Made by a program: the position numbers and the translations under genes. Source: Patescibacteria group bacterium (GTDB taxonomy: Bacteria; Patescibacteriota; Patescibacteriia; UBA9934). Taken from it: DNA of 64,000 nt. The stretch lies in the NCBI GenBank assembly GCA_038064675.1, contig JBBTSM010000006.1:7776-71775 (forward strand), written 5' to 3'. The notes under the pieces were generated by a model. It had not been told where the DNA came from, did not search any database, and worked only from the letters and a program-made list of their open reading frames with translations. This document shows positions 1-64,000 of this stretch, one piece after another. Positions within the stretch are counted from its first letter, which is position 1. Every line of letters begins with the position of its first letter.

Positions 1-855
1 AACAATTCCAAGAATCGCCGCAGCTGGTCGGGCAATCTTCATCGACGGAATCGACTTCACCACAAATACCAATGCGAGGCCCACGAACAATCCAAGAAAT
101 GCCGAACGCGATCCCGTCAGCAGCATACCGATGATGAGAACGACCGTGCCGATGCTTGTGATAACCATCATCTTCCGACGAAAAAGCCCCCCTCCGATTC
201 CCCCCATAAATGGGGGGAGAGATTTCACCTGAGCCATGAAGGCCCACCAAGCGAACAGCCCAACACCGAGGAATCCCCCAAATACATTCGGATGCGGAAA
301 ACTTCCATAGGTACGAAGAACGCGCTCACCGCTGGCTGTAAATACGGCATCACCAAGCTGCGAAGCGTCGCGATACGCAAGACCGAGCCATGAGTTCGCA
401 GGCGAAGAACCGCCGAATACTTGAATGAGACCGAGCACGAAGGGTGCAGCCAACGACACGACAAAAGCAAAGAGCAGATGTTTTACACTGACGCGATCAA
501 TGAGAATCGCAACAAAAAGCGCGTACGCAAGGCCAAGATGCGTGACCGTCGACAATGAAAACGCTGATCGATCCGCAAACGCCGTACCAAGAACCGCAAC
601 GATAAGAACAATCCCGCCGAGACGAACGGGAAGCTGACGTTTCGCGTCGATCGTCCACCATTTCCGATCAAGAATACTCCCCCCGATGAGCGCAGCCGCA
701 AGAAGAAGCTCCACCGCATACAAGCTCATCACGCCGAACTCTGTGTGCGCGCCAGCAATGGAAACCTCGCTATACATCCATCGCGTTTGCCACGGCAGAA
801 GAAAGATCGTTATGGACAGGAACAGCGTCGTCCAATTTGGAAAGAAGCGTTTCAT
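1..855 (-). CDS. O-antigen ligase / Wzy_C-like polytopic membrane protein; C-terminus truncated by window edge; alternative start at 777
   Basis: Manual minus-strand translation is open from about 855 to position 1. It gives MKRFFPNWTTLFLSITIFLLPW..., several TM helices and a TGSRSAFLGLF motif typical of O-antigen ligase/polymerase-family proteins. Not in the ORF track because there is no stop codon inside the window. Confidence 0.5.
   Translation of the reverse strand, partial: MKRFFPNWTTLFLSITIFLLPWQTRWMYSEVSIAGAHTEFGVMSLYAVELLLAAALIGGSILDRKWWTIDAKRQLPVRLGGIVLIVAVLGTAFADRSAFSLSTVTHLGLAYALFVAILIDRVSVKHLLFAFVVSLAAPFVLGLIQVFGGSSPANSWLGLAYRDASQLGDAVFTASGERVLRTYGSFPHPNVFGGFLGVGLFAWWAFMAQVKSLPPFMGGIGGGLFRRKMMVITSIGTVVLIIGMLLTGSRSAFLGLFVGLALVFVVKSIPSMKIARPAAAILGIV
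187..222. repeat. GC-rich palindromic element copy (a): cccccctccgattccccccataaatggggggagaga, in-frame inside the O-antigen-ligase-like CDS
   Basis: Seen directly. About 30/34 identical to the copy at 15645-15678. Confidence 0.7.
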
Positions 856-7000: not shown

Positions 7001-7546
7001 CTAGTGACTGTAAATTCTCCCCCAATGATCCCGGCTCGCTCTGAACTGTCCGCATTCCTGGCAACCACCTTCGGAAAATAACCGATCAACCGCGTACGGA
7101 GCAACACGATCGGCGCTATTCGGTGCAACGGCATGACGAGTTTGCGGCTCCCAGTCGACGACAATAATCTGCCCATTCGGGGCAAGCAGACGACGAGCCT
7201 CCGAAACGATCGATGCACGACGACGCGCCGACCACAGCGTGTTAATGAGGAAAATACGATCGAGCGAACCCTGTTCAATGTCGGCCACACCTCCAAACCG
7301 TTCAATGTCTCCTCGGACTGGATACAAGTTCAAAAGCGAGTGCAACGATCGGTGCCCGCGAAGCATCGATAACGCTTCAGGATGAATATCGATAGCAAAC
7401 ACCACACCATCGTCGGCAAGGAATCGCGCTGCTGGCAAAACTAAGTGTCCCGATCCCCCAGCACCAAAATCCGCCACACGATAACCGGGGCGAAGGTTTG
7501 CAATCTTGAGGATTACATTTGCATCGAGTAAGGCGCTACCAGCCAT
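7001..7546 (-). CDS. class I SAM-dependent methyltransferase
   Basis: VADFGAGGSGHL (motif I), FAIDIH and LAPNGQIIVVDW (motif IV region). Confidence 0.65.
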   Translation of the reverse strand: MAGSALLDANVILKIANLRPGYRVADFGAGGSGHLVLPAARFLADDGVVFAIDIHPEALSMLRGHRSLHSLLNLYPVRGDIERFGGVADIEQGSLDRIFLINTLWSARRRASIVSEARRLLAPNGQIIVVDWEPQTRHAVAPNSADRVAPYAVDRLFSEGGCQECGQFRASRDHWGRIYSH

Positions 7547-8212: not shown

Positions 8213-8298
8213 GCGCGGATGGTGAAATGGTAGACACGCCAGCTTGAGGGGCTGGTGGCCGCAAGGTCGTGGAGGTTCGAGTCCTCTTCCGCGCACCA
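8213..8298 (+). tRNA. tRNA-Leu (anticodon GAG), long variable arm, CCA encoded
   Basis: Acceptor GCGCGGA/UCCGCGC, anticodon stem CCAGC/GCUGG with loop UUGAGGG, long variable arm, T-arm GGAGG-UUCGAGU-CCUCU. Confidence 0.8.
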
Positions 8299-8363
8299 TC
8301 GATGAAGAAGTCCAGAACGGACTTCTTTTTCGTTTTCCCGTTCTTTGATACCCTTATGGCACT

Positions 8364-9074
8364 ATGGCAAACATGAAATTTGGGCTTGTGGGACGGATTT
8401 TGACGATTCTTGCTGCAATCGTAGTAATCGTTGCTGGAATGGCGTGGATCGGTAATGCCCAAGACCGCGCAAAAGAACCACAAAAGCTCGAGGTCGCGGC
8501 CAATGACAATGACTGGTTTGAGGGTGGAAAAGATGCTTCTGTCGTGCTCGTCGAATATAGCGACTTCCAGTGCCCGGCCTGCGGCGCGTACTTCCCTGTT
8601 ATGAAAGGCCTTCAAGAGGCGTACGGCGACAAGCTCAAGATTGTCTACCGCAACTATCCGCTTGCCTCTATTCATGCAAACGCCCAACTCGCAGCACAGG
8701 CCGCAGAAGCTGCTGGCATTCAAGAACAGTTCTTTCTGATGCACGATCTGCTCTTTGGCAACCAACAAACATGGAGTACAGAAACCGACCCAACGAACAC
8801 CTTCATCGGCTACGCAACATCTATTGGTCTTGATGTTGAAAAGTTCAAAACTGACCTTACAAGCGATGAAGCATTCGAGTCCGTAAAAGACGACATTCGA
8901 AGCGGAGACAAATCAAACGTGGATTCCACGCCAACGTTCTTCTTGAATGGTGTGCGGATTGAGAAGAATCCCCAGGGCCTTGAGCCATTCAAGGTACTCA
9001 TCGATGCAGCCCTCCCGCCAACTCCGGTCGCCGATCCGGCAACATCGAGCATTGAAGTGACGACCACGCCGTAA
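8364..9074 (+). CDS. DsbA-like thiol:disulfide oxidoreductase (thioredoxin fold, CPAC active site), N-terminal membrane anchor
   Basis: VVLVEYSDFQCPACGAYFPVMKGL... Thioredoxin-fold CxxC motif after an N-terminal TM helix. Confidence 0.8.
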   Translation: MANMKFGLVGRILTILAAIVVIVAGMAWIGNAQDRAKEPQKLEVAANDNDWFEGGKDASVVLVEYSDFQCPACGAYFPVMKGLQEAYGDKLKIVYRNYPLASIHANAQLAAQAAEAAGIQEQFFLMHDLLFGNQQTWSTETDPTNTFIGYATSIGLDVEKFKTDLTSDEAFESVKDDIRSGDKSNVDSTPTFFLNGVRIEKNPQGLEPFKVLIDAALPPTPVADPATSSIEVTTTP

Positions 9075-14865: not shown

Positions 14866-17520
14866 TTATGACACAAGCGCCGCATGCTCTTTTTGGAGCG
14901 CGGCAAGTTTTTCCTGAAGATCCGCAAGCTTTTGTCGCTCCCCCGCGATCACCTTCTCCGGTGCACGAGCAACAAAATCCGCATTCGCGAGCTTCGATTC
15001 TTGGGCGGCGATGAACTTTGTTGCTTCGGCGATTCCCGATTCGATACGCGCCTTTTCCGATGCCGCATCAACAGCCGGCAATTGCACAAAGATTTGCGCA
15101 GATCCAACCACAATCGGCGTAATCGATTCCGGACGCTCTTCGCCCGAACGAATCGCTTTCACTTTCGTTAAACCGCCGATGATCGATTCCATTCCCGACA
15201 AAACTCCTGCATTTACCATTACAATCGACTCCACATCCTTCGGCAATGTTTTGTGTTCCGAGAGATAATTGCGAATCGCAATCACCGCCGAACACACCTG
15301 ATCAAACGCCGATCGATCCTCCGACGACAATTCGTATTCAACCGTTGGCCACTTTGCGACGATGATCATTCCGGAGTTGAAATTCTTGTAGATTTCCTCA
15401 GTCACGAATGGAGCGAACGGGTGCCAAAGGATGAGCAGGCGTTCGAGAATGTAGAGAAGAACATCGCCCTTCTCGCCCTCGATCTTGGCGATCTCCAGGT
15501 ACCAGTCCGCGAAGTCGTTCCAGGTAAAATCACGCAACATTTCGATGGCGAGCGAGAAGTCGTAACGATCGATGAGTGAACTTACCTTCTTCGCCGTCTC
15601 GCTAAAACGCGCAAGAATCCATCGATCTGCGAGCGTCAGTGACGTCTCTCCCCCATTTATGGGGGAGTTGGAGGGGACGTCTACGTGTCGTGCTCCTCCC
15701 ACATTTCCGATAATAAATCGCGAAATGTTCCACAGCTTGTTCACAAGGTTGCGCGCAGCTTCCACCTTCTCTGTGTAATACCGCGAATCGTTTCCTGGCG
15801 TGTTACCAGAAAGGACGGAGATCCGAAGCGCATCGCAGCCGTATTCGTTGATCACTTCGATTGGATCGATGTTGTTTCCCGATGATTTTGAAAACTTGTT
15901 CCCGTCCTTATCACGCAACAAACCGTGCATGTACGCATTGTTGAACGGAACTTGATTCAACGCATACGAACTCATCAAAATCATGCGCATCAACCAGAGG
16001 TACAAAATCTCATACCCCATCTGGATCCAATTCGTTGGATGGAAGTTCTTGAGATCAGATGTCTTCTCAGGCCAGCCGAGCGTAGAAAACGTCCACGAAC
16101 CGCTTGAGAACCAGGTGTCGAGCGTGTCTTCGTCCTGAACCCAACCATCGCCTTCTGGCCTTGCACCAACAGCAATCTCTTCACCGCGATACCACGCCGG
16201 GATTCTATGACCCCACCAAATTTGGCGCGACAAACACCAATCGCGCAGATTGTTTACGCGATCAAGGTAGAGTTTTGTAAATCGCTCTGGCGTGATCGAT
16301 ACTTTTTGTGATGCATCGCCATTCAATCCTGTCGTCACCGCATCACGCATCAAATCCTTCAACGTCTTTCCACGTCCTGGAATTTCCTTGTTCACGTTCA
16401 GCCACCATTGCGTCATCGGAACCGACTCGATGACGTCGCCATAGCGATCGGACGTTCCAACGTTCTGAATGATGTCCTTTGAGTCTTCGAGAAGCCCTTG
16501 CCCCGAAAGCCATGCAACAACAGTTGCTCGAGCCTTTTCGACGGTTTGTCCAGCAACCAACTGCCCCGCTTCGACAGTCATCTTCCCATCAAGTCCGATC
16601 ACTTGGATAATCTCGATCGGATCCTGCTTCGCCTTCTGCACTTCGTACATTCCAAAGTCGATCGGGCTGTGCGCAGGCGTCACGCCCAGAGCGCCAGTAC
16701 CGAACGATGGATCAACCTCCTCGCTCGCGATAACTTTGATCGTCAATTTCGACCCCGCGAAATCAACATTGAATGTTTTTCCGATGAATGCCGTGTAACG
16801 ATCGTCAGCCGGGTGCACCGCAACAGCCGTATCGCCCACCTTCGTTTCTGGGCGTGTCGTCGAAATCGCAATTGGAAAATCTTTGCTGTATTTGAACGTG
16901 TAGAGAACGGAAGCTCGCTCGATCGTCTCGATTTCGTCATCGGATGACGTCGATTGTCCCTTCACCGACCAATTCACCACCCGGAATCCGCGATAGATAA
17001 GACCATCGTTGTACATTCGCGTAAAAAGCTCATTCACCGCAACGTTTCGCTTCTCGTCGAACGTGTATGCCAAACGGCTCCAGTCGGCGCTGGTTCCCAT
17101 CTTTTTCACCTGGCTCAAAATCGTCGATTTCGATTGCTCGGCAAACTCACGAATCTTTTCAACGAGCTTTTCTCGTCCAAGCTCTTGGCGAGGATTCTTG
17201 ATCCCGTCGGCCATCAACAGTTTTTCCACCTTTGCCTGCGTTGGCAACGCGGCATGGTCGGTTCCCGGAATAAGAAGTGCTTTCTTCCCTAAAAGACGCT
17301 GATAGCGAACCATCGCGTCCATGAGGGAATTTTCCAGCGCATGGCCAAGGTGCAACACGCCGGTAACGTTTGGCGGCGGCATCACGACAGTGAACGCCTC
17401 AGTGGAATCCGTAACATTCGGCAAATTCTCTGGCGTAAAAAAGCCTGAGCTTAGCCAAGATTCGTAAATTCCATCTTCCACCAACTTCGCCTCGTACGCT
17501 TTTGCCATTTCGTTCGCCAT
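14866..17520 (-). CDS. valS: valine--tRNA ligase (start chosen at MANEMAKAYEAK; ORF open to 17583)
   Basis: PPPNVTGVLHLGHALENSLMD and KFSKSSGN (KMSKS) motifs, an editing domain and a C-terminal coiled coil (QEKLAALQKEHAALVS). Confidence 0.9.
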   Translation of the reverse strand: MANEMAKAYEAKLVEDGIYESWLSSGFFTPENLPNVTDSTEAFTVVMPPPNVTGVLHLGHALENSLMDAMVRYQRLLGKKALLIPGTDHAALPTQAKVEKLLMADGIKNPRQELGREKLVEKIREFAEQSKSTILSQVKKMGTSADWSRLAYTFDEKRNVAVNELFTRMYNDGLIYRGFRVVNWSVKGQSTSSDDEIETIERASVLYTFKYSKDFPIAISTTRPETKVGDTAVAVHPADDRYTAFIGKTFNVDFAGSKLTIKVIASEEVDPSFGTGALGVTPAHSPIDFGMYEVQKAKQDPIEIIQVIGLDGKMTVEAGQLVAGQTVEKARATVVAWLSGQGLLEDSKDIIQNVGTSDRYGDVIESVPMTQWWLNVNKEIPGRGKTLKDLMRDAVTTGLNGDASQKVSITPERFTKLYLDRVNNLRDWCLSRQIWWGHRIPAWYRGEEIAVGARPEGDGWVQDEDTLDTWFSSGSWTFSTLGWPEKTSDLKNFHPTNWIQMGYEILYLWLMRMILMSSYALNQVPFNNAYMHGLLRDKDGNKFSKSSGNNIDPIEVINEYGCDALRISVLSGNTPGNDSRYYTEKVEAARNLVNKLWNISRFIIGNVGGARHVDVPSNSPINGGETSLTLADRWILARFSETAKKVSSLIDRYDFSLAIEMLRDFTWNDFADWYLEIAKIEGEKGDVLLYILERLLILWHPFAPFVTEEIYKNFNSGMIIVAKWPTVEYELSSEDRSAFDQVCSAVIAIRNYLSEHKTLPKDVESIVMVNAGVLSGMESIIGGLTKVKAIRSGEERPESITPIVVGSAQIFVQLPAVDAASEKARIESGIAEATKFIAAQESKLANADFVARAPEKVIAGERQKLADLQEKLAALQKEHAALVS
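15645..15678. repeat. GC-rich palindromic element copy (b), in-frame inside valS (encodes VPSNSPINGGETS)
   Basis: Reverse complement tcccctccaactcccccataaatgggggagaga aligns with copy (a). Confidence 0.7.
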
Positions 17521-17634
17521 AGATAGCACGCAGTGTAGACGAAAAGGCGATTTTGGGGTAGGATTCTCTGTCCGTGGGGGCAATCCCTAGGGCACCGCAG
17601 ACGGCCGGACCGCCGTCGTTCACATAGGTTTTTC

Positions 17635-32814: not shown

Positions 32815-32894
32815 GGGTCGAGGCGACGAAAACGCCTCGACCGACCCCCAGAACATTCGAGATTCTCGAGTGTCCTGGGGGTTTTCAGTTTCAG
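32815..32894 (+). terminator. tandem hairpins plus T-run closing the high-GC islet
   Basis: gggtcgaggcg-acgaaaa-cgcctcgacc perfect hairpin, then cccccag...(ttcgagattctcgag)...ctggggg followed by ttttcagtttcag. Confidence 0.5.
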
Positions 32895-55937: not shown

Positions 55938-56621
55938 ATGATCGAGGTCCTCCCAGGAATTCTCGCCCAAGACGCCACAGAGCTTCGGGAAAAACTCTTC
56001 TTCCCCGGCTTTTGGCAGCCTGGAATGACTGCACACGTGGATATTCTCGACGGAACAATGTTTGGCGCGACGTGTTTTTGTGATGCGGCGGCGATCGCAG
56101 CGGTCCCCACCTCCCCCTCCGGTCTGCCGACCATCGAACTCCACTGCATGGTCCAAAATCCCATGTCGATCATCGAACAATGGAAATCGATTGTGCCCGA
56201 AACGATTCGCGCCATCGTTCATGCGGAAATCGAAAGACCGATCGCACCAATTCTCGATCAAATTCGCGAGCTCGAGCTTGAGACTGGCGTCGCGCTGTGT
56301 CCAAGAACATCGCCAGACATTCTTGGAGATCTTCCACAGCTTCCGGATCGTGTCCTCATTATGGGTGTGGAACCGGGAGCGTCGGGGCAAACATTTCTTA
56401 GCGAACCAATTCTTGCAAAAATCCGCAGAACACGATCGCTGTATCACTCACTTACCATTGCGGTCGATGGCGGGATGAATATGGAAACCGCACCATCCGC
56501 TGTTTCGGCTGGAGCGAATGCATTCATCGCTACACACGCAATTTGGTCTGAAAAACGGCCTCACGACGCATATCAACATCTCACACACAGCACTCCGCTT
56601 CCCGGCATTCACAAGATTTGA
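55938..56621 (+). CDS. rpe: ribulose-phosphate 3-epimerase (ORF opens at TTG 55917, overlapping rpiB)
   Basis: Block pattern HVDILDG, LHCMV, MGVEPGASGQTF, VDGG, AGANAFIATHAIW matches Rpe. Confidence 0.7.
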   Translation: MIEVLPGILAQDATELREKLFFPGFWQPGMTAHVDILDGTMFGATCFCDAAAIAAVPTSPSGLPTIELHCMVQNPMSIIEQWKSIVPETIRAIVHAEIERPIAPILDQIRELELETGVALCPRTSPDILGDLPQLPDRVLIMGVEPGASGQTFLSEPILAKIRRTRSLYHSLTIAVDGGMNMETAPSAVSAGANAFIATHAIWSEKRPHDAYQHLTHSTPLPGIHKI

Positions 56622-57639: not shown

Positions 57640-58524
57640 ATGCCACAACGTCGACACACCATTTCCGCCATTACCGATGGCGACGTCCGCAAACTCGAGC
57701 TCATCGCGAATAGCATCCGTGAGGATATTTTAAAGATGCTTCTTACTGCGGGCAGCGGCCATAGTGCCGGACCTCTTGGAATGGCAGATATCTTCACCGC
57801 CCTCTACTTTCACATTCTCCATCACAACCCGAAGCGGCCAACATGGGACGAGCGCGATCGGTTATTTCTGAGCAACGGTCATATTGTCCCTGTTCGCTAC
57901 GCCACCATGGCACACGCTGGCTACTTCCCCATCGACGGACTCAAAACTCTACGAAAGTTCGGTTCTCGCCTTCAAGGACATCCGGAAATGCGATTTCTCC
58001 CGGGGCTCGAAAACACGTCCGGCCCGCTCGGTGATGGATCGTCGCAAGCTGTTGGCGCCGCATACGTCGCAAAAATGGATGGATCACCATGGCACACGTA
58101 TTGCGTCATGAGCGACGGCGAACTGGAATGTGGAATTACGTGGGAAGCTGCGCTCTTCGCCGCGAAAAATCAGCTGAACAATCTCACGTGGATCATCGAC
58201 CGCAACAACATCCAAATCGACGGCTATACAGAAGATATCATGCCGCTTGAACCACTCCACGATAAATTTACCGCATTCGGCTGGAATGTTCTGGAGATTG
58301 ATGGCCACAATATTCGCGACATCATCAATGCCTGCGACCGTGGAGAAAGTACCTGGGAGGCACCAACGGTCATTATCGCCCATACCATTCCCGGCAAAGG
58401 CGTCAGTTTCATGGAATGCGAGCCGAGTTGGCACGGAAAGCCACCGAAAGACCGAAAAGAACTTGGTGCAGCACTCAAGGAATTACGAACCTTAGGAGGA
58501 AAAATATCTAACGAAAGTCTATGA
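57640..58524 (+). CDS. transketolase, N-terminal (TPP-binding) subunit of a split transketolase
   Basis: MLLTAGSGHSAGPLGMADIFTALYFHILHHNP...GHPE... matches transketolase N-terminal-section signatures. Confidence 0.85.
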   Translation: MPQRRHTISAITDGDVRKLELIANSIREDILKMLLTAGSGHSAGPLGMADIFTALYFHILHHNPKRPTWDERDRLFLSNGHIVPVRYATMAHAGYFPIDGLKTLRKFGSRLQGHPEMRFLPGLENTSGPLGDGSSQAVGAAYVAKMDGSPWHTYCVMSDGELECGITWEAALFAAKNQLNNLTWIIDRNNIQIDGYTEDIMPLEPLHDKFTAFGWNVLEIDGHNIRDIINACDRGESTWEAPTVIIAHTIPGKGVSFMECEPSWHGKPPKDRKELGAALKELRTLGGKISNESL

Positions 58525-59501
58525 CCCGTACCCCATCGTTCCTTGCACGCATCGCTCGACTCATGCTCATTACCGGCCTAGTGCTCGTCGCGCTCATTTT
58601 GCTCGCAACATATGCAAGCATGCCACGACCGTCTTCCATGATGAGCTGGTGGGATAAAACCGAACGGAACGCTGTCACAAGCTCGTCGTCCGGGAGCGTC
58701 AGTGCATCGGATTCCTTCGGCGGAGGAATGATGGGATACGCCATCGCGCCAGAAACCGCACCGGCGCCATCAGCGACTACAACAACGGACGTTTCAACAA
58801 CGACAACCGTGGATCAGCGCGTCATTAAAACAGGATCGATCGACATGACATCGAACGACGTGCCATCAACGGTAAGCCTCGTTTCGAACCTCGCAACAAT
58901 ACGGGGTGGCTTTGTTCAAACATCCTCAACGAGCGACGATGAACAAGGAAAAACCTCGGCATACATTGTTCTTCGAGTTCCTTCCGGCGATTTTGATGCA
59001 ACGATGACCGACATTAAAGGGTTTGGCGTGCATGTAAATAACGAATCGATTTCCGGTGAAGACGTCACAGAACAGTTCACCGACGTTTCCGCTCGGCTCG
59101 CCGCTGCGAAGGCGCAGGAAGAGCAATATCTCATCATTCTCAAGAGTGCCACCACCGTTGGCGAAGTTCTCGCTGTTCAAGAACATCTTGCGATTGTTCG
59201 TGCAGACATCGAATCACTTCAGGGCCAAGTCAACTACCTCACCAACCGCACCGATCTCGCAACGATCAGCATCGTGGTTTCTGAAGAGCCAACCGCAGAG
59301 ACCGCGAGCGACAGCAAATTCGATCCTGCGCGCGATGCAAACTCTGCAGTCGCTCTCGTTATTACCCTTGGTCAGCATGCACTTTCCGTGCTGATCTGGG
59401 CGGCTATCATCGGTACCGCCGTCGGCATTCCTGTTGGTCTTGTTGCATTCATCTACTGGCTCATCACTCGTCGTCGAGATGTTTCAAAGCGCAGAAAGTA
59501 A
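58521..59501 (+). CDS. DUF4349-like membrane-anchored protein with coiled coil
   Basis: N-terminal TM, central coiled coil (RLAAAKAQEEQYLIILKSATTVGEVLAVQEHLAIVRADIESLQGQVNYL), C-terminal TM. 4-nt overlap with the transketolase N-terminal gene. Confidence 0.5.
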   Translation: MTRTPSFLARIARLMLITGLVLVALILLATYASMPRPSSMMSWWDKTERNAVTSSSSGSVSASDSFGGGMMGYAIAPETAPAPSATTTTDVSTTTTVDQRVIKTGSIDMTSNDVPSTVSLVSNLATIRGGFVQTSSTSDDEQGKTSAYIVLRVPSGDFDATMTDIKGFGVHVNNESISGEDVTEQFTDVSARLAAAKAQEEQYLIILKSATTVGEVLAVQEHLAIVRADIESLQGQVNYLTNRTDLATISIVVSEEPTAETASDSKFDPARDANSAVALVITLGQHALSVLIWAAIIGTAVGIPVGLVAFIYWLITRRRDVSKRRK

Positions 59502-59506
59502 CTCGA

Positions 59507-59540
59507 CCCCCTCCTTACTCCCCCTTGGTAAGGGGGAGAG
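59507..59540. repeat. GC-rich palindromic element copy (c): cccctccttactcccccttggtaagggggagag, upstream of the DUF559 gene
   Basis: Same architecture (CCCCTCC-NN-CTCCCCC-loop-GGGGGAG) with a different loop. Confidence 0.65.
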
Positions 59541-59561
59541 TTATCGACTGAATCTGATCTC

Positions 59562-59948
59562 ATGACACGGATATACAATCAGGAATGGAGTATAGAACGA
59601 CGAAAATCCATGCGATCAAACATGACCGGACCGGAACAGTTGCTATGGAAAGCGCCGAGAGGAGAATCGCTCGGTATAAAGTTTCGACGACAATTCGGCA
59701 TTGGTCCATATATCGCGGATTTTTACTCTCCAAGGAATAAGCTCGTCATCGAAATCGACGGAGGATCACACGCACACCCAAATGCACGAACCTACGATGA
59801 CGAGCGTGACGCTTTCATGATCGGTCTTGGAATAAACGTTTTGCGTTTCTCAAATCACGAAGTCCTTTCAAATATCGACGATGTTCTTCTTCGAATTCAG
59901 GAGGCGATACCCCTCCCCCTTGCCAAGGGGGAGTCGGAGGGGGTTTAG
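59562..59948 (+). CDS. DUF559 / Vsr-like endonuclease-domain protein
   Basis: 128 aa: LLWKAPRGESLGIKFRRQFGIGPYIADFYSPRNKLVIEIDGGSHAHPNARTYDDERDAFMIGLGINVLRFSNHEVL matches the DUF559 pattern. The C-terminal 12 aa are encoded by a palindromic repeat copy. Confidence 0.75.
   Translation: MTRIYNQEWSIERRKSMRSNMTGPEQLLWKAPRGESLGIKFRRQFGIGPYIADFYSPRNKLVIEIDGGSHAHPNARTYDDERDAFMIGLGINVLRFSNHEVLSNIDDVLLRIQEAIPLPLAKGESEGV
59911..59945. repeat. GC-rich palindromic element copy (d), inverted relative to (c), forming the 3' end of the DUF559 CDS
   Basis: ccctcccccttgccaagggggagtcggaggggg; its reverse complement begins ccccctccgact... Confidence 0.65.
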
Positions 59949-59965
59949 AATGTTACAATACGCGC

Positions 59966-60952
59966 ATGTCCACCCTCGCCAGCGCAAAACTCGTCAAAGA
60001 TCTCTTTGCGAAAACCATCAAAACCGAACCAACGCGGAATGGTTTTGGTCGAGGGTTGGTTGAAGCTGGGATACGGAACGAATCCGTGGTGGCACTCTGT
60101 GCAGACTTGAGCGAATCCACTCGCGTGCTCGATTTTAAGAACGCATTTCCGGATCGGTACGTTCAGATGGGTGTTTCCGAACAATCGCTTGCGGCTATCG
60201 CTTCCGGCATGGCACTCGCAGGAAAGATTCCATTCATCGCAAGCTATGCCGCATTCTCCCCTGGCAGAAATTGGGAGCAAATCCGTACTACGGGATGCTT
60301 GCAAAACGTGAATCTCAAAATCGCTGGGGCTCACGCCGGCGTTTCCGTTGGCCCAGATGGCGCAACACATCAAATGACCGAGGATATCGCACTCATGCGC
60401 GTGTTGCCGAACATGACGGTTCTTGTGCCGTGTGATGCGATTGAGGCAGAGAAGGCAACCATCGCCGCAGCCGAAATCGATGGACCAGTCTACATTCGCC
60501 TTGGTCGTGAGGCGACACCGATCTTCACTACAGAAAAGTCCCCTTTCGAAATCGGTAAGGCGCAAGTTCTGACGAAGGGAAACGATGTTGCGATTATCGC
60601 CTGTGGCCCTCAAGTCTACGAAGCGCTCAAAGCGGCACGCGATCTCGAAAAATCTGGAATCGATGCGCGCGTGATCAATTGTGTCTCGATCAAACCTCTC
60701 GATAAGGAGACGATCGTAAAGGCAGCGAAAGAATGCGGCGCAGTCGTAACTGTCGAAGAAGCGCAGATCGCCGGCGGCATGGGCAGCGCAGTGTGCGAGC
60801 TACTGTCGGAAGAATGCCCTGTGCCGATCATAAGAATCGGAATGAACGATACATTTGGGCAGTCTGGAACACCGGATGAACTCCTTGAACACTATCACCT
60901 CACTGCAGCGTGGATTGTGAAGGCGGCAAAGCAAGCCATGAAACGACGATAG
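59966..60952 (+). CDS. transketolase, C-terminal (pyrimidine-binding + C-terminal domain) subunit
   Basis: FGRGLVEAGIRNESVVALCADLSESTRV...MGVSEQSLAAIASGMALAGKIPF matches transketolase C-terminal-section signatures. Confidence 0.85.
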   Translation: MSTLASAKLVKDLFAKTIKTEPTRNGFGRGLVEAGIRNESVVALCADLSESTRVLDFKNAFPDRYVQMGVSEQSLAAIASGMALAGKIPFIASYAAFSPGRNWEQIRTTGCLQNVNLKIAGAHAGVSVGPDGATHQMTEDIALMRVLPNMTVLVPCDAIEAEKATIAAAEIDGPVYIRLGREATPIFTTEKSPFEIGKAQVLTKGNDVAIIACGPQVYEALKAARDLEKSGIDARVINCVSIKPLDKETIVKAAKECGAVVTVEEAQIAGGMGSAVCELLSEECPVPIIRIGMNDTFGQSGTPDELLEHYHLTAAWIVKAAKQAMKRR

Positions 60953-60954
60953 GT

Positions 60955-62214
60955 ATGTATGAAGATCACTTTTTACCCCATGAAGGGCTGAAGGTTCCGG
61001 AACCTTCGGCCGCTGAAGGCCTAGAGCGCTACCATGAAAAATTGCACGCCCTGCAATTTTTGCACTTGCGATCGCCAGCGACCGAATACGACGATGAACG
61101 CCGAGGAGAGCAGCCAATGCCACATCAAAACACCGAAGCCCGATGGAATACCGTTCTTGAAACGGTAACCACAACACTCACAACCGACGACGCCTGGAGC
61201 AGTGATCGATTGATGCGGGGCCTTGTTGAAAACACGTGTATTGGCGTCCTTCGCGAATTCCCGCACTGGAATACCAACGCTCGACTAAACGGGCGACTTT
61301 TAACGCTGCTGGATACCGCGATAATTTCTGCGCGAGAACACGCCGGCGAACATGACGATCTCGACATCGTGAGCGAAAATACGCTCGACGAACTCATTAG
61401 CTCACCAGAAGCCAATCCCCTTCTCCGACGCAAGGCCGAGGCGATGCTGTCGAGAAATACTAACTGGTGGCCACCAGACGCAGGGTTGCGCCGAGAGATC
61501 CTTACGCGGTTCAAGGCTCCATACGAACTCAATGGGAAAACCCACTGGGAAGGACTCGCCGAAGGCGTAACTGATCAAGATCTTCTTGCCATACCTGAAC
61601 CATGGTTTGACGAAGAGGCGGTGGTGGAATTTTTATGGGAAAAGCAGGTGCGAGCGCAAGAAGACTCCGCGCTACGCAAGTCGTCCGATGATCCAGCGCT
61701 CGTGATCGTCAAACTCTCTCCCGAAAACGTTGGCGCGTACGATCGCATGGGTCGACTTGTAGGTGTACGAGACGCCGAGTACGGAGCGGTCACTCCACTC
61801 GCTCAACATCCAGACCTCGTGCGACCAGATGTTGCAGAAGATATTGCTTTTACGTTTGATCTTGGCATGCGAACGCAGCTCAGCAAAGATTTCGGTTTTC
61901 CAATCGAACACCTCACACTTCGCGAACAGGTTTCTCTTATTGGAACACTCAGAGAAATCACCTGGGTGCTCGGCCCCCAGTCCACGGCGATGGACGAAGC
62001 CGAGAAATTCCTCCGTGAAAAGGGGGAGAAGATCGCCTACGCCTGGAAAGGTGAGCGGCGAGCGCTCCCCGGAGAGTCGCAATGCGGCGTCGGAGGATGG
62101 GACCACACCGGGTCACTCGTCATGGTGGATGCTCTCGTTGAACTCACGGGGTATCGCATCACCACCGCAGGCCAAGTGCCTGCGCAGTGGGCGCGACTGC
62201 GCAAGCAAACCTGA
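60955..62214 (+). CDS. hypothetical protein (start MYEDHF chosen 2 nt after the transketolase C stop; ORF opens at 60910)
   Basis: About 420 aa, acidic, no motif recognised. Confidence 0.4.
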   Translation: MYEDHFLPHEGLKVPEPSAAEGLERYHEKLHALQFLHLRSPATEYDDERRGEQPMPHQNTEARWNTVLETVTTTLTTDDAWSSDRLMRGLVENTCIGVLREFPHWNTNARLNGRLLTLLDTAIISAREHAGEHDDLDIVSENTLDELISSPEANPLLRRKAEAMLSRNTNWWPPDAGLRREILTRFKAPYELNGKTHWEGLAEGVTDQDLLAIPEPWFDEEAVVEFLWEKQVRAQEDSALRKSSDDPALVIVKLSPENVGAYDRMGRLVGVRDAEYGAVTPLAQHPDLVRPDVAEDIAFTFDLGMRTQLSKDFGFPIEHLTLREQVSLIGTLREITWVLGPQSTAMDEAEKFLREKGEKIAYAWKGERRALPGESQCGVGGWDHTGSLVMVDALVELTGYRITTAGQVPAQWARLRKQT

Positions 62215-62248
62215 CACCCCTCCTCTACTCCCCCTAGGGCGTAGAGGC
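62214..62248. repeat. degenerate palindromic element copy (f) immediately after the 60955-62214 CDS stop
   Basis: cccctcctctactccccctagggcgtagagg: same left half, diverged right arm. Confidence 0.4.
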
Positions 62249-62424
62249 CTTCATGAATACCGAACGTATGCTGTCGGAATTTCTCATGCCTCTCTCTCGG
62301 CGTGCGAATCTTTCGTTCGTATGTACGGTATTCCTGAGGATCCCCCAGCAATATGTTGAGGGATTTCTGTATAGGGAAAACTCTTTCAAAGTCGCTGTAT
62401 CTCTCTCACAGCGGTTTTCATCAA

Positions 62425-62457
62425 ACACCACCCAGCAATGGGTGGTGTTTGTGTTTT
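62425..62457 (+). terminator. Rho-independent terminator
   Basis: acaccaccc-agcaat-gggtggtgt hairpin followed by ttgtgtttt. Confidence 0.6.
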
Positions 62458-62499
62458 AACGCAGCGAACGACGGCACGCGTGGCCGTCGTTCTTCGTTC

Positions 62500-62775
62500 C
62501 TAGGCGGCCGAAGCCACCGAAATGTTGCCGGTCGATGCAGTGTTGCACTCCTTCATGAGGATGCTCTTCGCCAGCGAAAGCGCCGAACCCGGGCGATCGC
62601 ACCTGATGTGGTCCAACACTTGCAACGTTTGGGGATGATCCACAAGCGCAGCGTGAAAGTCGTCCCACATGCCAGTTACCGCTTTTGTCAGCGGCCGGCC
62701 GTCGAGCTCATCGACGGCGATCTGAAGTTCTTGAACGAGTTCTTTCAACAACAGCAGATTCATTTCTAGCCCCAC
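62500..62775 (-). CDS. small hypothetical protein
   Basis: 91-aa ORF. Followed on its strand by a hairpin gaacgacggc-acgcgtg-gccgtcgttc (62468-62494). Confidence 0.25.
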   Translation of the reverse strand: MGLEMNLLLLKELVQELQIAVDELDGRPLTKAVTGMWDDFHAALVDHPQTLQVLDHIRCDRPGSALSLAKSILMKECNTASTGNISVASAA

Positions 62776-62846
62776 GTTGGAGATTTAGCACCGAAACCGC
62801 ACTCAGATTAGCAAAAAAATGAGTTTTTGTCTACACTACGCGCCAT

Positions 62847-63554
62847 ATGGAACTCATGCGTCTCAACAAATATCTCGTGGATGCTGGGATTTGCTCCCGC
62901 CGGGAAGCAGATCGGTTGATGGTGGCTGGGAAAATCGTGGTCGATGGGAAAAAGGCGGAGCTTGGAATAAAGGTCAATGGGACCGAATCTATTACCGTGA
63001 ACGGCAAACGCGTGGCCCAACCAAGCCAGAAACGGGTGTATCTCGCGTATCACAAACCCGTCGGGATCATCTGTACGTCGGATCCAAAGGCAAAGGACAA
63101 TATCATTGAGGCTGTGGCCTATCCGGAGCGCATTTTTCACATTGGCCGTTTGGACGTGGCATCGTCTGGCTTGATTTTGCTTACGAATGACGGCGACATC
63201 GTGAATAAGATTCTTCGCGCAGAGGGCAAGCACGAAAAGGAGTACGTCGTCACCATCGACCGCGCTGTTACCGATGACTTCGTTCATCAGATGTCGACGG
63301 GAATCGAAATCATGGGCCGGAAAACCTATCCAGCAAAAGTGGAGAAGCTCGGCGACATGAGTTTTGCGATTACCCTCGTTGAAGGCAAGAACCGCCAAAT
63401 TCGCCGCATGTGTGAGGCGATGCATGTGAACGTCAAAAACCTTGAGCGTATCCGCGTGATGAATGTTGAACTTGGCGGACTCCCTCAGGGAAAGTGGCGC
63501 CATCTCACACCGGGCGAGGAAAAGGAACTTCTCGCGATGTTGGGACCGAGATAA
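62847..63554 (+). CDS. rRNA pseudouridine synthase, RsuA/RluB family (S4 domain + PseudoU_synth_2)
   Basis: MRLNKYLVDAGICSRREADRLMVAGKIVVDG (S4), GRLDVASSGLILLTNDGDI catalytic Asp motif, NRQIRRM. Confidence 0.8.
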   Translation: MELMRLNKYLVDAGICSRREADRLMVAGKIVVDGKKAELGIKVNGTESITVNGKRVAQPSQKRVYLAYHKPVGIICTSDPKAKDNIIEAVAYPERIFHIGRLDVASSGLILLTNDGDIVNKILRAEGKHEKEYVVTIDRAVTDDFVHQMSTGIEIMGRKTYPAKVEKLGDMSFAITLVEGKNRQIRRMCEAMHVNVKNLERIRVMNVELGGLPQGKWRHLTPGEEKELLAMLGPR

Positions 63555-63646
63555 CGGTTAATCGCTAGCGCTTGGTTAATCGGGATTACCCTTGGTTAAA
63601 TGGTTATCCGGAATAACCGTTTTCACCGCCTTAACCGCTTAACCCT

Positions 63647-64000
63647 ATGTTCTTTTTCTGGATACTTTTCGTCATCGTAGGCACCATGGCATGGGGCTCC
63701 ATTCTTGCGGCTCCGTGGGTGCCAACCCTTTCGGCGCAAAGGAAGTTGTTGGTTGATAGTCTCGTCATACCTCCCCCCGACCCCCTCCTTCGAAAGGAGG
63801 GGGAGAAATCGGTGACCATTTACGATCTCGGCTGCGGATCCGGATCGATTCTCTTCGAATTCGCCGATCGGTATCCAAACGCTCGTTGCATCGGCTACGA
63901 CGTTGCGCTTCTTCCCCTTTTCATCGGAATGATGGTGAAACTTCGTCATCCGATAAAATATAAAAACGTTTCACTCCGATTTGGAAATTTCTTCAAGAAA
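63647..64000 (+). CDS. class I SAM-dependent methyltransferase with N-terminal TM helix (3' end truncated by window)
   Basis: Manual translation: MFFFWILFVIVGTMAWGSILAAPW...SVTIYDLGCGSGSILFEFADRYPNARCIGYDV (motif I). A palindromic repeat copy encodes PPPDPLLRKEGEK in-frame. Confidence 0.5.
   Translation, partial: MFFFWILFVIVGTMAWGSILAAPWVPTLSAQRKLLVDSLVIPPPDPLLRKEGEKSVTIYDLGCGSGSILFEFADRYPNARCIGYDVALLPLFIGMMVKLRHPIKYKNVSLRFGNFFKK
63770..63806. repeat. GC-rich palindromic element copy (e), in-frame inside the partial methyltransferase CDS
   Basis: cctccccccgaccccctccttcgaaaggagggggagaaa: perfect ccccctcctt/aaggaggggg stem. Confidence 0.6.

What the first reader, a model, noticed from the sequence alone, without database searches (positions are those of the whole stretch)
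63770..63806. Third in-frame copy of the palindromic element inside a methyltransferase gene, plus a degenerate copy used as an intergenic hairpin (62214-62248)
ccccctcctt-cgaa-aggaggggg lies between the TM helix and SAM-binding motif I of the truncated methyltransferase. It codes PPPDPLLRKEGEK without a frameshift. A diverged copy sits right after the stop codon of the 60955-62214 gene, where it could act as a terminator. This means the family occurs both in coding and in noncoding contexts, with at least 6 copies in 64 kb.
Basis: seen in the sequence. Interest (0 to 1): 0.6.

Follow-up and report, generated by a model that had tools for sequence, protein, structure and literature searches.

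The report
Triplex-hairpin repeat inserted inside genes
A roughly 40-base GC-rich repeat of the known 'intrastrand triplex' (E. coli BoxC-like) class sits in frame in the flexible linker of a methyltransferase gene of a groundwater Patescibacteria genome, and two sister copies bracket a small DUF559 endonuclease gene that behaves as a mobile cassette, which points to a candidate enzyme for repeats whose way of spreading is unknown.

Summary
At 63768-63803 a 10-bp-arm hairpin (CCCCCTCCTT-cga-AAGGAGGGGG) lies in frame in the methyltransferase and codes PPPDPLLRKEGEK. Orthologues from close relatives carry only four residues at that site, a canonical family copy, or an unrelated hairpin repeat, and these states are interleaved on the protein tree. 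The site has therefore been filled or emptied repeatedly. The element is more than a palindrome. A third segment upstream (TACCTCCCCC) mirrors the hairpin arm, which is the architecture of the published intrastrand triplex motifs (BoxC/PIT/TMECO). Against the copy at the same site in a relative, the interrupting T/A has moved in all three segments together. The window holds five intact copies, one degenerate copy (62214-62248, no T-tract, not terminator-like) and one probable remnant. Four copies are read through by genes. Copies 59505-59538 and 59913-59945 are inverted repeats around a DUF559 endonuclease gene, and this 464-bp unit is absent from three syntenic relatives. In 80 metagenomic DUF559 loci such hairpins flank the gene far more often than they flank neighbouring genes. 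E. coli ycjD lies 168 bp from a BoxC. Best reading: selfish triplex-hairpin DNA tolerated in protein linkers. Mobilisation by DUF559 is inferred, not shown.

The parts
63768..63803 (+). Copy c6, the finding. Third block TACCTCCCCC (63768-63777), spacer CGA (63778-63780), pyrimidine arm CCCCCTCCTT (63781-63790), loop CGA (63791-63793), purine arm AAGGAGGGGG (63794-63803). In frame in the methyltransferase linker. On the minus strand it reads as a purine-motif intrastrand triplex motif (pyrimidine arm, purine arm, then reverse-Hoogsteen block).
   Evidence: hairpin -11.5 kcal/mol, z -2.6; 10/10 triads obey the G.G-C / A or T.A-T rule; insertion relative to orthologues
63647..64000 (+). 5' part of the class I SAM methyltransferase gene, cut by the window end (the full protein P0001 is 182 aa). 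The insert occupies residues about 42-55, in a coil between helix 26-38 and strand 57-61.
   Evidence: AlphaFold2 pLDDT 88.8 overall, 73 for residues 41-50
62214..62248 (+). Copy c5, degenerate. CCCCTCC (62217-62223) and CTCCCCC are kept and the purine arm is lost. The alternative hairpin pairs 62222-62228 with 62241-62247. It starts at the last base of the stop codon (62212-62214) of ORF 60955-62214 and has no T-tract.
59505..59538 (+). Copy c3, the left inverted repeat of the DUF559 cassette. Third block GACCCCCTC (59505-59513), spacer CTTA, arm CTCCCCCTT (59518-59526), loop GGT, arm AAGGGGGAG (59530-59538). Similarity to c4 continues to about 59547 (TATCG).
59562..59948 (+). DUF559 (Vsr-like, PD-(D/E)XK-type) endonuclease gene of 128 aa. 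Its last 13 codons (IPLPLAKGESEGV) are read from copy c4.
   Evidence: PF04480, E 7.7e-29; all residues invariant in the family alignment are present; PDB 3HRL, E 1e-17
59913..59945 (-). Copy c4, the right inverted repeat of the DUF559 cassette, with the element oriented on the minus strand. Arm 59913-59921, loop GCC, arm 59925-59933, spacer TCG, third block GAGGGGGTT (59937-59945).
   Evidence: 9/9 triads
59502..59965 (.). A 464-bp window-specific insertion (c3 + DUF559 + c4) between the DUF4349 stop codon and the ATG of the transketolase C-terminal subunit. Three syntenic relatives have 1-3 bp here.
187..218 (+). Copy c1 (CCCCCCT..TCCCCCC-ataaat-GGGGGGA). A minus-strand open frame that runs off the window start reads through it as SLPPFMGGIGGGLF.
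   Evidence: No Pfam or NCBIfam hit for that ORF.
15648..15677 (-). Copy c2 in valyl-tRNA synthetase (14866-17583, minus strand), coding VPSNSPINGGET in the hypervariable linker between KLWNxSRF and LADRWIL.
56105..56125 (+). Probable decayed copy (CCCCACCTCCCCCTCC) in the ribulose-phosphate 3-epimerase gene, in the hypervariable loop where relative L330 carries an intact copy.
   Evidence: This is an inference from position and residual sequence.

Best explanation
The 63768-63803 sequence is a copy of a small selfish DNA repeat of the intrastrand-triplex class, the class of E. coli BoxC/PIT/TMECO. The unit is a homopyrimidine arm, a loop, the complementary homopurine arm, and 2-5 nt away a third block that mirrors the arm. 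One strand can therefore fold into a hairpin and then dock the third block in its major groove (G.G-C and A/T.A-T triads on the G-rich strand). The repeat spreads at the DNA level, since copies show no orientation bias relative to transcription. It has landed several times in the same permissive spot of this methyltransferase, a disordered linker between the membrane helix and the Rossmann domain. There a net gain of 10-12 codons of Pro/Gly-rich peptide is tolerated. Copies elsewhere in the window and in relatives sit in comparable variable loops (ValRS, an isoleucyl-tRNA-synthetase-like gene, Rpe) or between genes, and they decay with time (c5, the Rpe remnant, the split copy in L329). The likely source of mobility is the DUF559 Vsr-like endonuclease. 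Its gene is bracketed by two inverted copies and this 464-bp unit is itself an insertion. I propose that the nuclease recognises or nicks the folded element and moves or copies cassette and solo elements in trans, in the way a RAYT transposase relates to REP/REPIN sequences. Shown: repeat family, triplex architecture with three-way covariation, insertion polymorphism at the methyltransferase site and of the cassette, and the strong DUF559-element association. Inferred: actual triplex folding in vivo, and that DUF559 is the mobilising enzyme.
For: Family and excess over chance. Insertion at an orthologous site: about half of 32 orthologues have 4 residues where others carry 13-30-residue inserts. 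At the DNA level, L005 and L332 are empty, L004 and L006 carry canonical copies, and L330 carries the c6 type. Filled and empty states are interleaved on the NJ tree; for example, filled P0004 is sister to empty P0013. Triplex architecture: all five intact window copies have a mirror third block, and c6 scores 10/10 triads. c6 and the L006 copy at the same site share the loop TTCGAAA, but the T/A interruption has moved in third block, pyrimidine arm and purine arm together. Among hairpins not selected for a third block, a perfect mirror block is present in 127 of 206 asymmetric arms against 50 with a perfect direct block, and the mirror score exceeds the direct score in 101 cases against 22. 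Two-interruption examples also obey the rule. The class is published, and triplex folding of TMECO was shown by CD and NMR. The flexible linker is supported by the AlphaFold2 model. DUF559 cassette: the 464-bp unit is absent from L004, L006 and L007. In 70 metagenomic DUF559 loci with sufficient flanks, 60 have such a hairpin at a gene end and 42 at both ends, against 5 of 69 and 0 of 69 for other genes in the same loci (Fisher p = 1e-22 and 6e-17). Hairpin density is 4.4 per kb near DUF559 ends against 0.27 per kb elsewhere. Inverted arrangements number 22 against 4 direct. The element type is specific to DUF559 clades. The DUF559 gene in L313 is flanked by copies nearly identical to the solo copy in the L004 methyltransferase. 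E. coli K-12 ycjD (DUF559) lies 168 bp from a canonical BoxC/TMECO. In-frame copies in real genes of other phyla (MetH, AcrB-family, MmeI-like methyltransferase, MatE).
Against: No nuclease activity, binding or transposition has been shown for any DUF559 protein. No target-site duplication or conserved target was found: flanking direct repeats are no commoner than in shuffled pairings. The filled and empty methyltransferase alleles differ by replacement (42 nt against 12 nt) and not by a clean insertion. Only 3 of 120 genome loci chosen by the element pattern hold a DUF559 gene within 8 kb. This fits a single-copy mobiliser, but it equally fits no functional link. E. coli genomes that lack ycjD still carry BoxC-like sequence. 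Holder et al. found no mobility genes near TMECO and read the motifs as instability hot spots, not as mobile DNA. The ValRS copy could not be shown to be an insertion, because only homologues of at most 54% identity were found. Triplex folding of this particular sequence is untested, and a G-quadruplex or recognition of the mirror repeat by a protein is not excluded.
Confidence: 0.6

Rival explanations
1. The triplex-hairpin repeats are not cargo of DUF559. Instead, DUF559 is a free-standing homing-type selfish gene that targets pre-existing inverted pairs of such repeats, or is merely retained next to them because they are recombination hot spots. On this view the repeats arise or spread by host processes such as replication slippage or template switching at the folded structure, gene conversion, and illegitimate recombination.
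For: Inverted doublets without any gene exist (L009, L049, L123; L146, L152, L238), so a doublet could be a landing pad. Holder et al. link TM sites to rearrangement and insertion/deletion and found no mobility genes nearby. Window segment 60944-62792, also absent from relatives, ends at degenerate copy c5. The E. coli sapF-fabI interval that holds ycjD and BoxC is replaced by other genes in O157:H7. There is no TSD. Vsr-fold homing endonucleases are known (EDxHD family, I-Bth0305I).
Against: The three relatives have no repeat at all at the DUF4349/transketolase junction (1-3 bp), so gene and both repeats arrived together or in quick succession. Flanking element types are conserved within DUF559 clades over about 50% protein divergence, as expected for one inherited unit. 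Near-identical 35-nt elements occur as a DUF559 flank in one metagenome and as a solo copy inside a gene in another.
Confidence: 0.22
2. The copies are host-beneficial cis-elements, for example transcription terminators or attenuators, mRNA stabilisers, translational pause sites or protein linkers, kept by positive selection and not as selfish DNA.
For: The sequence is strongly conserved across phyla. The hairpins are stable. c3 and c5 follow stop codons. The coding copies always fall in linkers, where a flexible Pro/Gly peptide could be useful.
Against: No T-tract is present and no copy is flagged by the terminator scan. PIT elements had no promoter or terminator activity in E. coli, as summarised. 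Orientation relative to transcription is mixed: pyrimidine-type in the mRNA for c2, c3, c5 and c6, purine-type for c1 and c4. Close orthologues do without the insert, and the same methyltransferase site is filled by an unrelated hairpin family in other lineages. Copies decay. There is no Rfam match.
Confidence: 0.1
3. There is no element. The stretch is an ordinary low-complexity Pro/Gly-rich linker whose palindromic look comes from codon composition or chance.
For: Pro (CCN) and Gly (GGN) codons are complementary, so P...G peptides tend to look palindromic. The unit is open in 5 of 6 frames.
Against: There are zero matches in shuffles. The DNA-level similarity extends to non-coding copies and to copies read in other frames and on other strands. 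L006 7671-7709 aligns with c3 at 87.5% although the contexts are unrelated. Orthologues show presence and absence.
Confidence: 0.02

Closest known systems
Intrastrand triplex motifs: E. coli BoxC = PIT elements (Hoyne and Maher 2000, 2002, as cited in PMC4666352) = TMECO and the ITxF catalogue (Holder et al. 2015, NAR, PMC4666352)
   Same: The three-block architecture is the same: pyrimidine arm, loop, purine arm, short loop, then a mirror purine or G/T block. The elements are G/C-rich with 6-15-nt stems, dispersed in many copies, found in many phyla, have conserved stems and variable loops, and are associated with variable genome regions.
   Different: The sequence differs from the TMECO consensus CCCTCNCCC...GGGNGAGGG. 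TMECO is reported as always intergenic and without neighbouring mobility genes. Here copies are read through by genes (methyltransferase, ValRS, an IleRS-like gene, Rpe; also MetH, AcrB-family, MmeI-like and MatE genes in other phyla). A DUF559 gene is systematically flanked by them, including ycjD in E. coli.
Rickettsia palindromic elements (RPE), described by Ogata and colleagues (recalled from memory; mentioned in the MITE review PMC10969869)
   Same: They are selfish palindromic repeats that insert in frame into protein-coding genes, add a peptide segment in permissive surface regions, and also occur between genes.
   Different: By recollection RPEs are about 100-150 bp, restricted to Rickettsia, have no mirror third block, and have no known associated nuclease. 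The present units are about 30-45 bp and belong to a class found across phyla.
REP/REPIN sequences and their RAYT (TnpA-REP, HUH Y1) transposases (Bertels and Rainey 2011, PMC3116915; Di Nocera 2013, PMC3733652; both listed)
   Same: Short GC-rich hairpin repeats occur as singlets and inverted doublets, and a small single gene is flanked by two inverted copies of the repeat that is dispersed in the genome.
   Different: The flanked gene here is a DUF559 Vsr-like PD-(D/E)XK-type endonuclease, not an IS200/IS605-type HUH transposase. There is no GTAG or CGTC tag, and the extra mirror block is absent from REPs.
EDxHD (Vsr-like fold) homing endonucleases such as I-Bth0305I (Taylor et al. 2011, PMC3239194)
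   Same: This is a precedent that a Vsr-like nuclease fold can drive the mobility of its own gene.
   Different: Those enzymes sit in group I introns or inteins of phage genes and cut long specific targets. The DUF559 cassette is free-standing, bounded by structured repeats, and its activity is untested.
[quoted passage not shown]
   Same: A short non-autonomous element coexists with a longer gene-bearing element that has the same ends. Inverted doublets of about 110 bp exist in other genomes.
   Different: Solo copies here are a single end and not a TIR pair. No target-site duplication was found, and no canonical transposase is present.

Membership tests
Intrastrand triplex motif (BoxC/PIT/TM class, Holder 2015) | Three consecutive blocks on one strand: a pyrimidine arm, the complementary purine arm, and a third block antiparallel-identical to the purine arm (G for G, A or T for A) | tested here: met
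   c6 10/10, c4 9/9, c3 8/9, c1 7/7, c2 6/7 triads. Three-way covariation between c6 and the L006 copy.
Intrastrand triplex motif (BoxC/PIT/TM class, Holder 2015) | Stems of 6-15 nt and loops of 1-6 nt (ITxF search criteria) | tested here: met
   c6 has a 10-nt stem and loops of 3 and 3 nt. Read with the shorter arms, c1 and c2 have a 6-nt first loop.
Intrastrand triplex motif (BoxC/PIT/TM class, Holder 2015) | Over-represented, dispersed, multi-copy | tested here: met
   4 pattern sites against 0 in 100 shuffles.
Intrastrand triplex motif (BoxC/PIT/TM class, Holder 2015) | Actual folding into a triple helix (CD, NMR, footprinting) | not testable with these tools
   Shown in vitro only for TMECO. 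The available folding tools model hairpins only.
TMECO / E. coli BoxC proper | Consensus 5'-CCCTCNCCC-N3-6-GGGNGAGGG-N3-GGGNGAGGG | tested here: not met
   The window copies are CTCCCCC/GGGGGAG or CCCCCTCC/GGAGGGGG. They share the class but not the sequence family.
Rickettsia palindromic elements | In-frame insertion into ORFs relative to orthologues | tested here: met
   methyltransferase; Rpe in L330. This is the 'works like' criterion only.
Rickettsia palindromic elements | A palindromic unit of about 100-150 bp belonging to the RPE sequence families of Rickettsia | tested here: not met
   The unit is about 30-45 bp and the host is Patescibacteria. RPE size is from memory.
REP/RAYT (REPIN) system | A gene flanked by two inverted copies of the dispersed repeat | tested here: met
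   c3 and c4 flank DUF559. Inverted arrangements 22 against 4 direct in metagenomic loci.
REP/RAYT (REPIN) system | The flanked gene is an IS200/IS605-like HUH tyrosine transposase, and the repeat carries a GTAG/CGTC tag | tested here: not met
   The gene is PF04480 DUF559. No GTAG tag is present in the copies.
MITE | Terminal inverted repeats plus a target-site duplication | tested here: not met
   Solo copies are single units. Flanking direct repeats of at least 6 nt occur in 8% of elements against 6.3% in shuffled pairings.
Intrinsic (Rho-independent) terminator | A GC-rich hairpin followed directly by a T/U tract | tested here: not met
   No copy is flagged, while 62422-62451 is. The sequences after the stems are CCTTCATG (c5) and AGAAATCG (c6).
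DUF559 (PF04480), for ORF 59562-59948 | Match above the Pfam gathering score and the conserved catalytic-core residues | tested here: met
   100.2 bits against a cut-off of 20.6. Invariant Q44, Y50, D53, E64, D66, H70, D79, R82 and N98 are present. PDB 3HRL matches at E 1.2e-17.
Any Rfam RNA family | Covariance-model match | tested here: not met
   Only six tRNAs in the window at gathering threshold. There are no hits with E of 5 or less in 59300-64000.

The most novel reading that the evidence does not exclude
DUF559 (Vsr-like) endonucleases are the missing mobility or maintenance enzymes of BoxC/PIT-type intrastrand-triplex repeats. On this reading a pan-bacterial system, analogous to REP/RAYT but built on a different nuclease fold, recognises a DNA triple-helix-forming hairpin. 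It includes E. coli ycjD and BoxC, and in several phyla it seeds in-frame peptide insertions into essential genes.
Probability: 0.35. Interest if true: 0.85.

Novelty: new variant of a known kind. Interest (0 to 1): 0.66.

Why it matters
According to Holder et al. 2015, BoxC was first described in E. coli in the 1990s, and that paper found no mobility genes near TMECO motifs and no established function. This locus supplies three things the papers I could search do not report. First, clean presence/absence alleles show that such elements enter and leave a gene at one site. Second, they can be carried in frame by essential or conserved genes, so they are a source of linker and loop evolution in proteins, in Patescibacteria and also in Bacteroidota and Proteobacteria genes. 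Third, there is a specific, statistically strong and phylogenetically broad association with one small endonuclease family of unknown function, and the association extends to a genetically tractable pair (ycjD and BoxC) in E. coli K-12. The third point turns an open question into a bench experiment. If DUF559 recognises a folded triplex-hairpin, it would also be a natural protein that reads a non-B DNA structure.

Tried and rejected
(1) Looking up the source contig with the neighbouring pseudouridine synthase found nothing on record. The methyltransferase P0001 did work.

(2) Rfam found no family for any copy.

(3) Terminator reading: no T-tract and no scan hit.

(4) DUF559 as a general neighbour of the repeat: only 3 of 120 pattern-selected genome loci have one within 8 kb. 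The association holds from the gene's side, not from the repeat's side.

(5) Target-site duplication: c2 has a 7-bp direct repeat (AGACGTC) and c3 a 5-bp one (TCGAC). Across 138 elements, however, flanking repeats are no commoner than in shuffled pairings. I therefore treat both as coincidence.

(6) Clean insertion boundaries: the sister alleles L006 (filled) and L332 (empty) differ by 42 nt against 12 nt, so the 3' boundary is ambiguous.

(7) ValRS insertion: no homologue above 54% identity was found. The linker is 26 residues against 13-22, which is suggestive only.

(8) The gene holding c1 has no family hit. I ran no further search on it.

(9) An E. coli 'empty site' for ycjD: in O157:H7 the interval holds other genes, so it is not informative.

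(10) PADLOC and PHROGs gave only weak generic nuclease hits for DUF559 and nothing for ORF 60955-62214.

(11) G-quadruplex as the reason for the third G-rich block: not excluded. It does not predict the mirror placement of the interruptions, or their restriction to A or T.

(12) The second hairpin family seen at the methyltransferase site (GATCCCCGC..GCGGGGATC) is absent from the window.
Full report
THE OBSERVATION

The perfect palindrome CCCCCTCCTTCGAAAGGAGGGGG (63781-63803) never occurs in 100 dinucleotide-preserving shuffles of the window. The reading frame from the ATG at 63647 is open to the window end. It gives MFFFWILFVIVGTMAWGSILAAPWVPTLSAQRKLLVDSLVIPPPDPLLRKEGEKSVTIYDLGCGSG.... Pfam methyltransferase models begin to match at residue 54, at the YDLGCGSG motif.

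A looser family pattern finds four further sites (190, 15649, 59509, 59914) against none in shuffles. A degenerate copy lies at 62214-62248. The identical protein (P0001, 182 aa, named by NCBI as from a Patescibacteria group MAG) is encoded on contigs from three independent samples, two of them Hainich groundwater assemblies. The sequence is therefore not an assembly artefact.

IT IS AN INSERTION, AND THE SITE IS USED REPEATEDLY

Forty-seven homologues were found. In an alignment of 32 of them, about half have only four residues (DSAS, NPES...) between LLVDNLxI and TIYDLGCG. The others carry 13-30 extra residues of at least two kinds. One kind is PPP(D/T/N)P...(K/R)(E/G)GE and APSDSPINGGELS. 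The other is LDPRLRGDDG.

I fetched the DNA of several.
- L005 and L332 are empty.
- L004 holds CCCCCTCC-GA-CTCCCCC-ATAAAT-GGGGGAG.
- L006 holds CCCCCTCC-AA-CTCCCCC-TTCGAAA-GGGGGAG.
- L330 holds the same variant as the window.
- L007 holds an unrelated hairpin, GATCCCCGC-CTA-CGCGGGGAT.

On a neighbour-joining tree built without the insert region, filled and empty alleles are interleaved. Filled P0004 is sister to empty P0013, P0019 to P0023, and P0021 to P0033. The net gains are 30, 33 and 36 nt. An AlphaFold2 model (mean pLDDT 88.8) places residues 39-56 in a coil between a helix and the first beta-strand of the Rossmann fold, with lower confidence there. The site is a permissive linker.

WHAT THE ELEMENT IS

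Every intact copy has, besides the hairpin, a third block 2-5 nt from one arm (CCCCCTCC in the canonical copies). That block is the mirror image, not the complement, of the adjacent arm.

In c6 the T has a different position in the arm: CCCCCTCC/GGAGGGGG instead of CTCCCCC/GGGGGAG. The third block has changed with it, to CCTCCCCC. Meanwhile the loop TTCGAAA is the same as in the L006 copy at the same site. Scored with the rule G opposite G and A or T opposite A, c6 gives 10 of 10 triads.

I tested the mirror rule on hairpins that had not been selected for a third block.
- In 80 metagenomic loci, 127 of 206 hairpins with asymmetric arms have a perfect mirror block and 50 a perfect direct one. 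The mirror score exceeds the direct score in 101 cases and the reverse holds in 22.
- In viral contigs, most hairpins of the CCCCTCC...GGAGGGG type are plain terminator-like stems. A subset carries a mirror block, including arms with two interruptions, such as GAGGAGGGG-TT-GGGGTGGTGGG.

This architecture is published. It is the intrastrand triplex motif, first seen as BoxC in E. coli, re-described as PIT elements, and catalogued and shown to fold as a purine-motif triplex in vitro as TMECO (Holder et al. 2015, PMC4666352). Matches came from Alpha-, Beta-, Gamma- and Deltaproteobacteria, Chloroflexota, Bacteroidota, Cyanobacteria, Omnitrophota, Deinococcus, Saccharibacteria and Gracilibacteria. 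No Rfam family matches.

CODING COPIES

In the window, genes read through four copies: a minus-strand hydrophobic ORF at the window start (c1), ValRS (c2), the C-terminus of DUF559 (c4) and the methyltransferase (c6). The ValRS copy lies in the hypervariable linker before LADRWIL. Only distant homologues were retrieved, so insertion there is likely but not shown.

Relative L330 has further copies inside an isoleucyl-tRNA-synthetase-like gene and inside ribulose-phosphate 3-epimerase. In the epimerase alignment that site is a hypervariable loop, and the window gene keeps what looks like a decayed copy.

This is not peculiar to Patescibacteria. Among pattern matches from other phyla I confirmed by Pfam in-frame copies in a Prevotella MetH (between the pterin-binding and B12-binding domains), a Draconibacterium AcrB-family pump, a Gallionellaceae MmeI-like methyltransferase and a Bacteroidales MatE protein. 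Holder et al. describe TMECO as always intergenic in E. coli.

Copies show no consistent orientation relative to transcription. [quoted passage not shown] Both points argue for a DNA-level element.

THE DEGENERATE COPY

62214-62248 retains CCCCTCC and CTCCCCC but not the purine arm. The predicted hairpin uses other bases. There is no T-tract, and the terminator scan flags none of the copies, though it does flag 62422-62451. The copy lies at the 3' end of ORF 60955-62214, inside a 1.85-kb segment (60944-62792) that syntenic relatives lack.

THE DUF559 CASSETTE

Copies c3 and c4 are each other's closest relatives in the window and are inverted. Between them lies a 128-aa ORF that matches Pfam DUF559 at 100 bits, keeps all residues invariant in the family alignment, and matches PDB 3HRL.

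In L004, L006 and L007 the DUF4349 stop and the ATG of the transketolase C-terminal subunit are 1-3 bp apart. The window has 464 bp there, and the rest of the region is collinear at 75-84% nucleotide identity. The unit of repeat, gene and repeat is thus a discrete insertion.

About 45% of 120 DUF559 homologues end in peptides that are translated GC hairpins, such as PLPLAKGESEGV, PLLTKEG.., SPxPSLRRRGE.. and PPYEGG. Results for the 80 metagenomic DUF559 loci:

| Measure | DUF559 | Comparison |
|---|---|---|
| Hairpin density | 4.4 per kb next to the gene ends | 0.27 per kb elsewhere in the same loci |
| Hairpin at either gene end | 60 of 70 loci with enough flank | 5 of 69 other genes in those loci, Fisher p = 1e-22 |
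| Hairpin at both gene ends | 42 of 70 | 0 of 69, Fisher p = 6e-17 |
| Arrangement of the two flanking copies | 22 inverted | 4 direct |

Flanking types are conserved within DUF559 clades. In L313 the flanks are almost identical to the solo copy inside the L004 methyltransferase.

In E. coli K-12 the DUF559 gene ycjD ends in a decayed motif. A canonical BoxC, CCCTCGCCCC-TCT-GGGGAGAGGG-TTA-GGGTGAGGGG, lies 168 bp downstream. The ycjD plus BoxC segment is present in 3,377 of 5,426 complete genomes.

A full-text search for DUF559 found no paper that links it to repeats, and Holder et al. do not mention it.

MECHANISM AND ITS LIMITS

I commit to the following. These are selfish DNA repeats whose defining property is a hairpin with a docking third block. 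They persist in genes only where a Pro/Gly-rich peptide of 10-12 residues is harmless. Their movement is most likely catalysed in trans by the DUF559 nuclease of cassettes such as 59502-59965, by analogy with REP/RAYT.

The last step is inference. No target-site duplication exists. Filled and empty alleles differ by replacement and not by clean insertion. Most repeat copies are far from any DUF559 gene. E. coli strains without ycjD still carry BoxC-like sequence.

The main rival is that DUF559 is a homing-type gene that settles in, or is retained at, repeat doublets, which are themselves recombination hot spots. A functional cis-element is unlikely, and chance is excluded.

VERDICT

The finding is a new variant of a known kind. 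It also yields a testable and, as far as I could find, unreported lead on how this class of repeat is mobilised.

Noticed in passing
window 60944-62792: A 1.85-kb segment absent from syntenic relatives L004, L006 and L007. It holds a 419-aa ORF (60955-62214) with no Pfam, NCBIfam, PADLOC or PHROG match, starts 3 bp after the transketolase stop, and ends at degenerate copy c5.
   Followed up: partly
L007 about 7500-7540; proteins P0002, P0021, P0025, P0031, P0041: The same methyltransferase linker site is occupied in other lineages by an unrelated hairpin repeat, GATCCCCGC-CTA-CGCGGGGAT (peptide LDPRLRGDNG). From memory this resembles another repeat that is widespread in bacteria. It is absent from this window.
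   Followed up: partly
L329 5753-6340 (P0003; also P0006): A 33-nt secondary insertion splits the pyrimidine arm of the c6-type element and lengthens the peptide to PPPNPSLSSPNDRLVERLRKEGKKS. This is an example of nested change or decay of a coding copy.
   Followed up: no
L004 13867-15280: A reverse transcriptase (RVT_1) next to a bAvd gene, which suggests a diversity-generating retroelement, a few kb from the syntenic block in a close relative.
   Followed up: no
L328 about 8290-8365 (E. coli K-12, between ycjD and fabI): A duplicated remnant of the 3' end of ycjD (GGAGACGGTGCTGGAGAATATTC...) lies between ycjD and the BoxC. This suggests a past tandem or second DUF559 copy at this locus. In O157:H7 the interval holds efflux genes instead.
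   Followed up: partly
L010, L020, L026, L038, L101: Some genes carry two adjacent in-frame copies. Examples are Prevotella MetH (PALPLRGGS ... LSPIRGGAGGG), the MmeI-like methyltransferase and an HrpA-like helicase, so doublets also survive inside coding sequence.
   Followed up: partly
window 57640-58524 and 59966-60952: Transketolase is split into N- and C-terminal subunit genes with a DUF4349 gene between them. The order N subunit, DUF4349, C subunit is conserved in all relatives examined.
   Followed up: no
window 32844-32882: A palindrome with 19-nt arms, ACCCCCAGAACATTCGAGA/TCTCGAGTGTCCTGGGGGT, followed by TTTT. It looks like a terminator and is not a member of the family studied here.
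   Followed up: no
window 15634-15692: Copy c2 in ValRS is bracketed by a 7-bp direct repeat (AGACGTC). Across 138 elements such repeats are not enriched, so this is probably coincidence, but it is the only TSD-like feature seen.
   Followed up: yes
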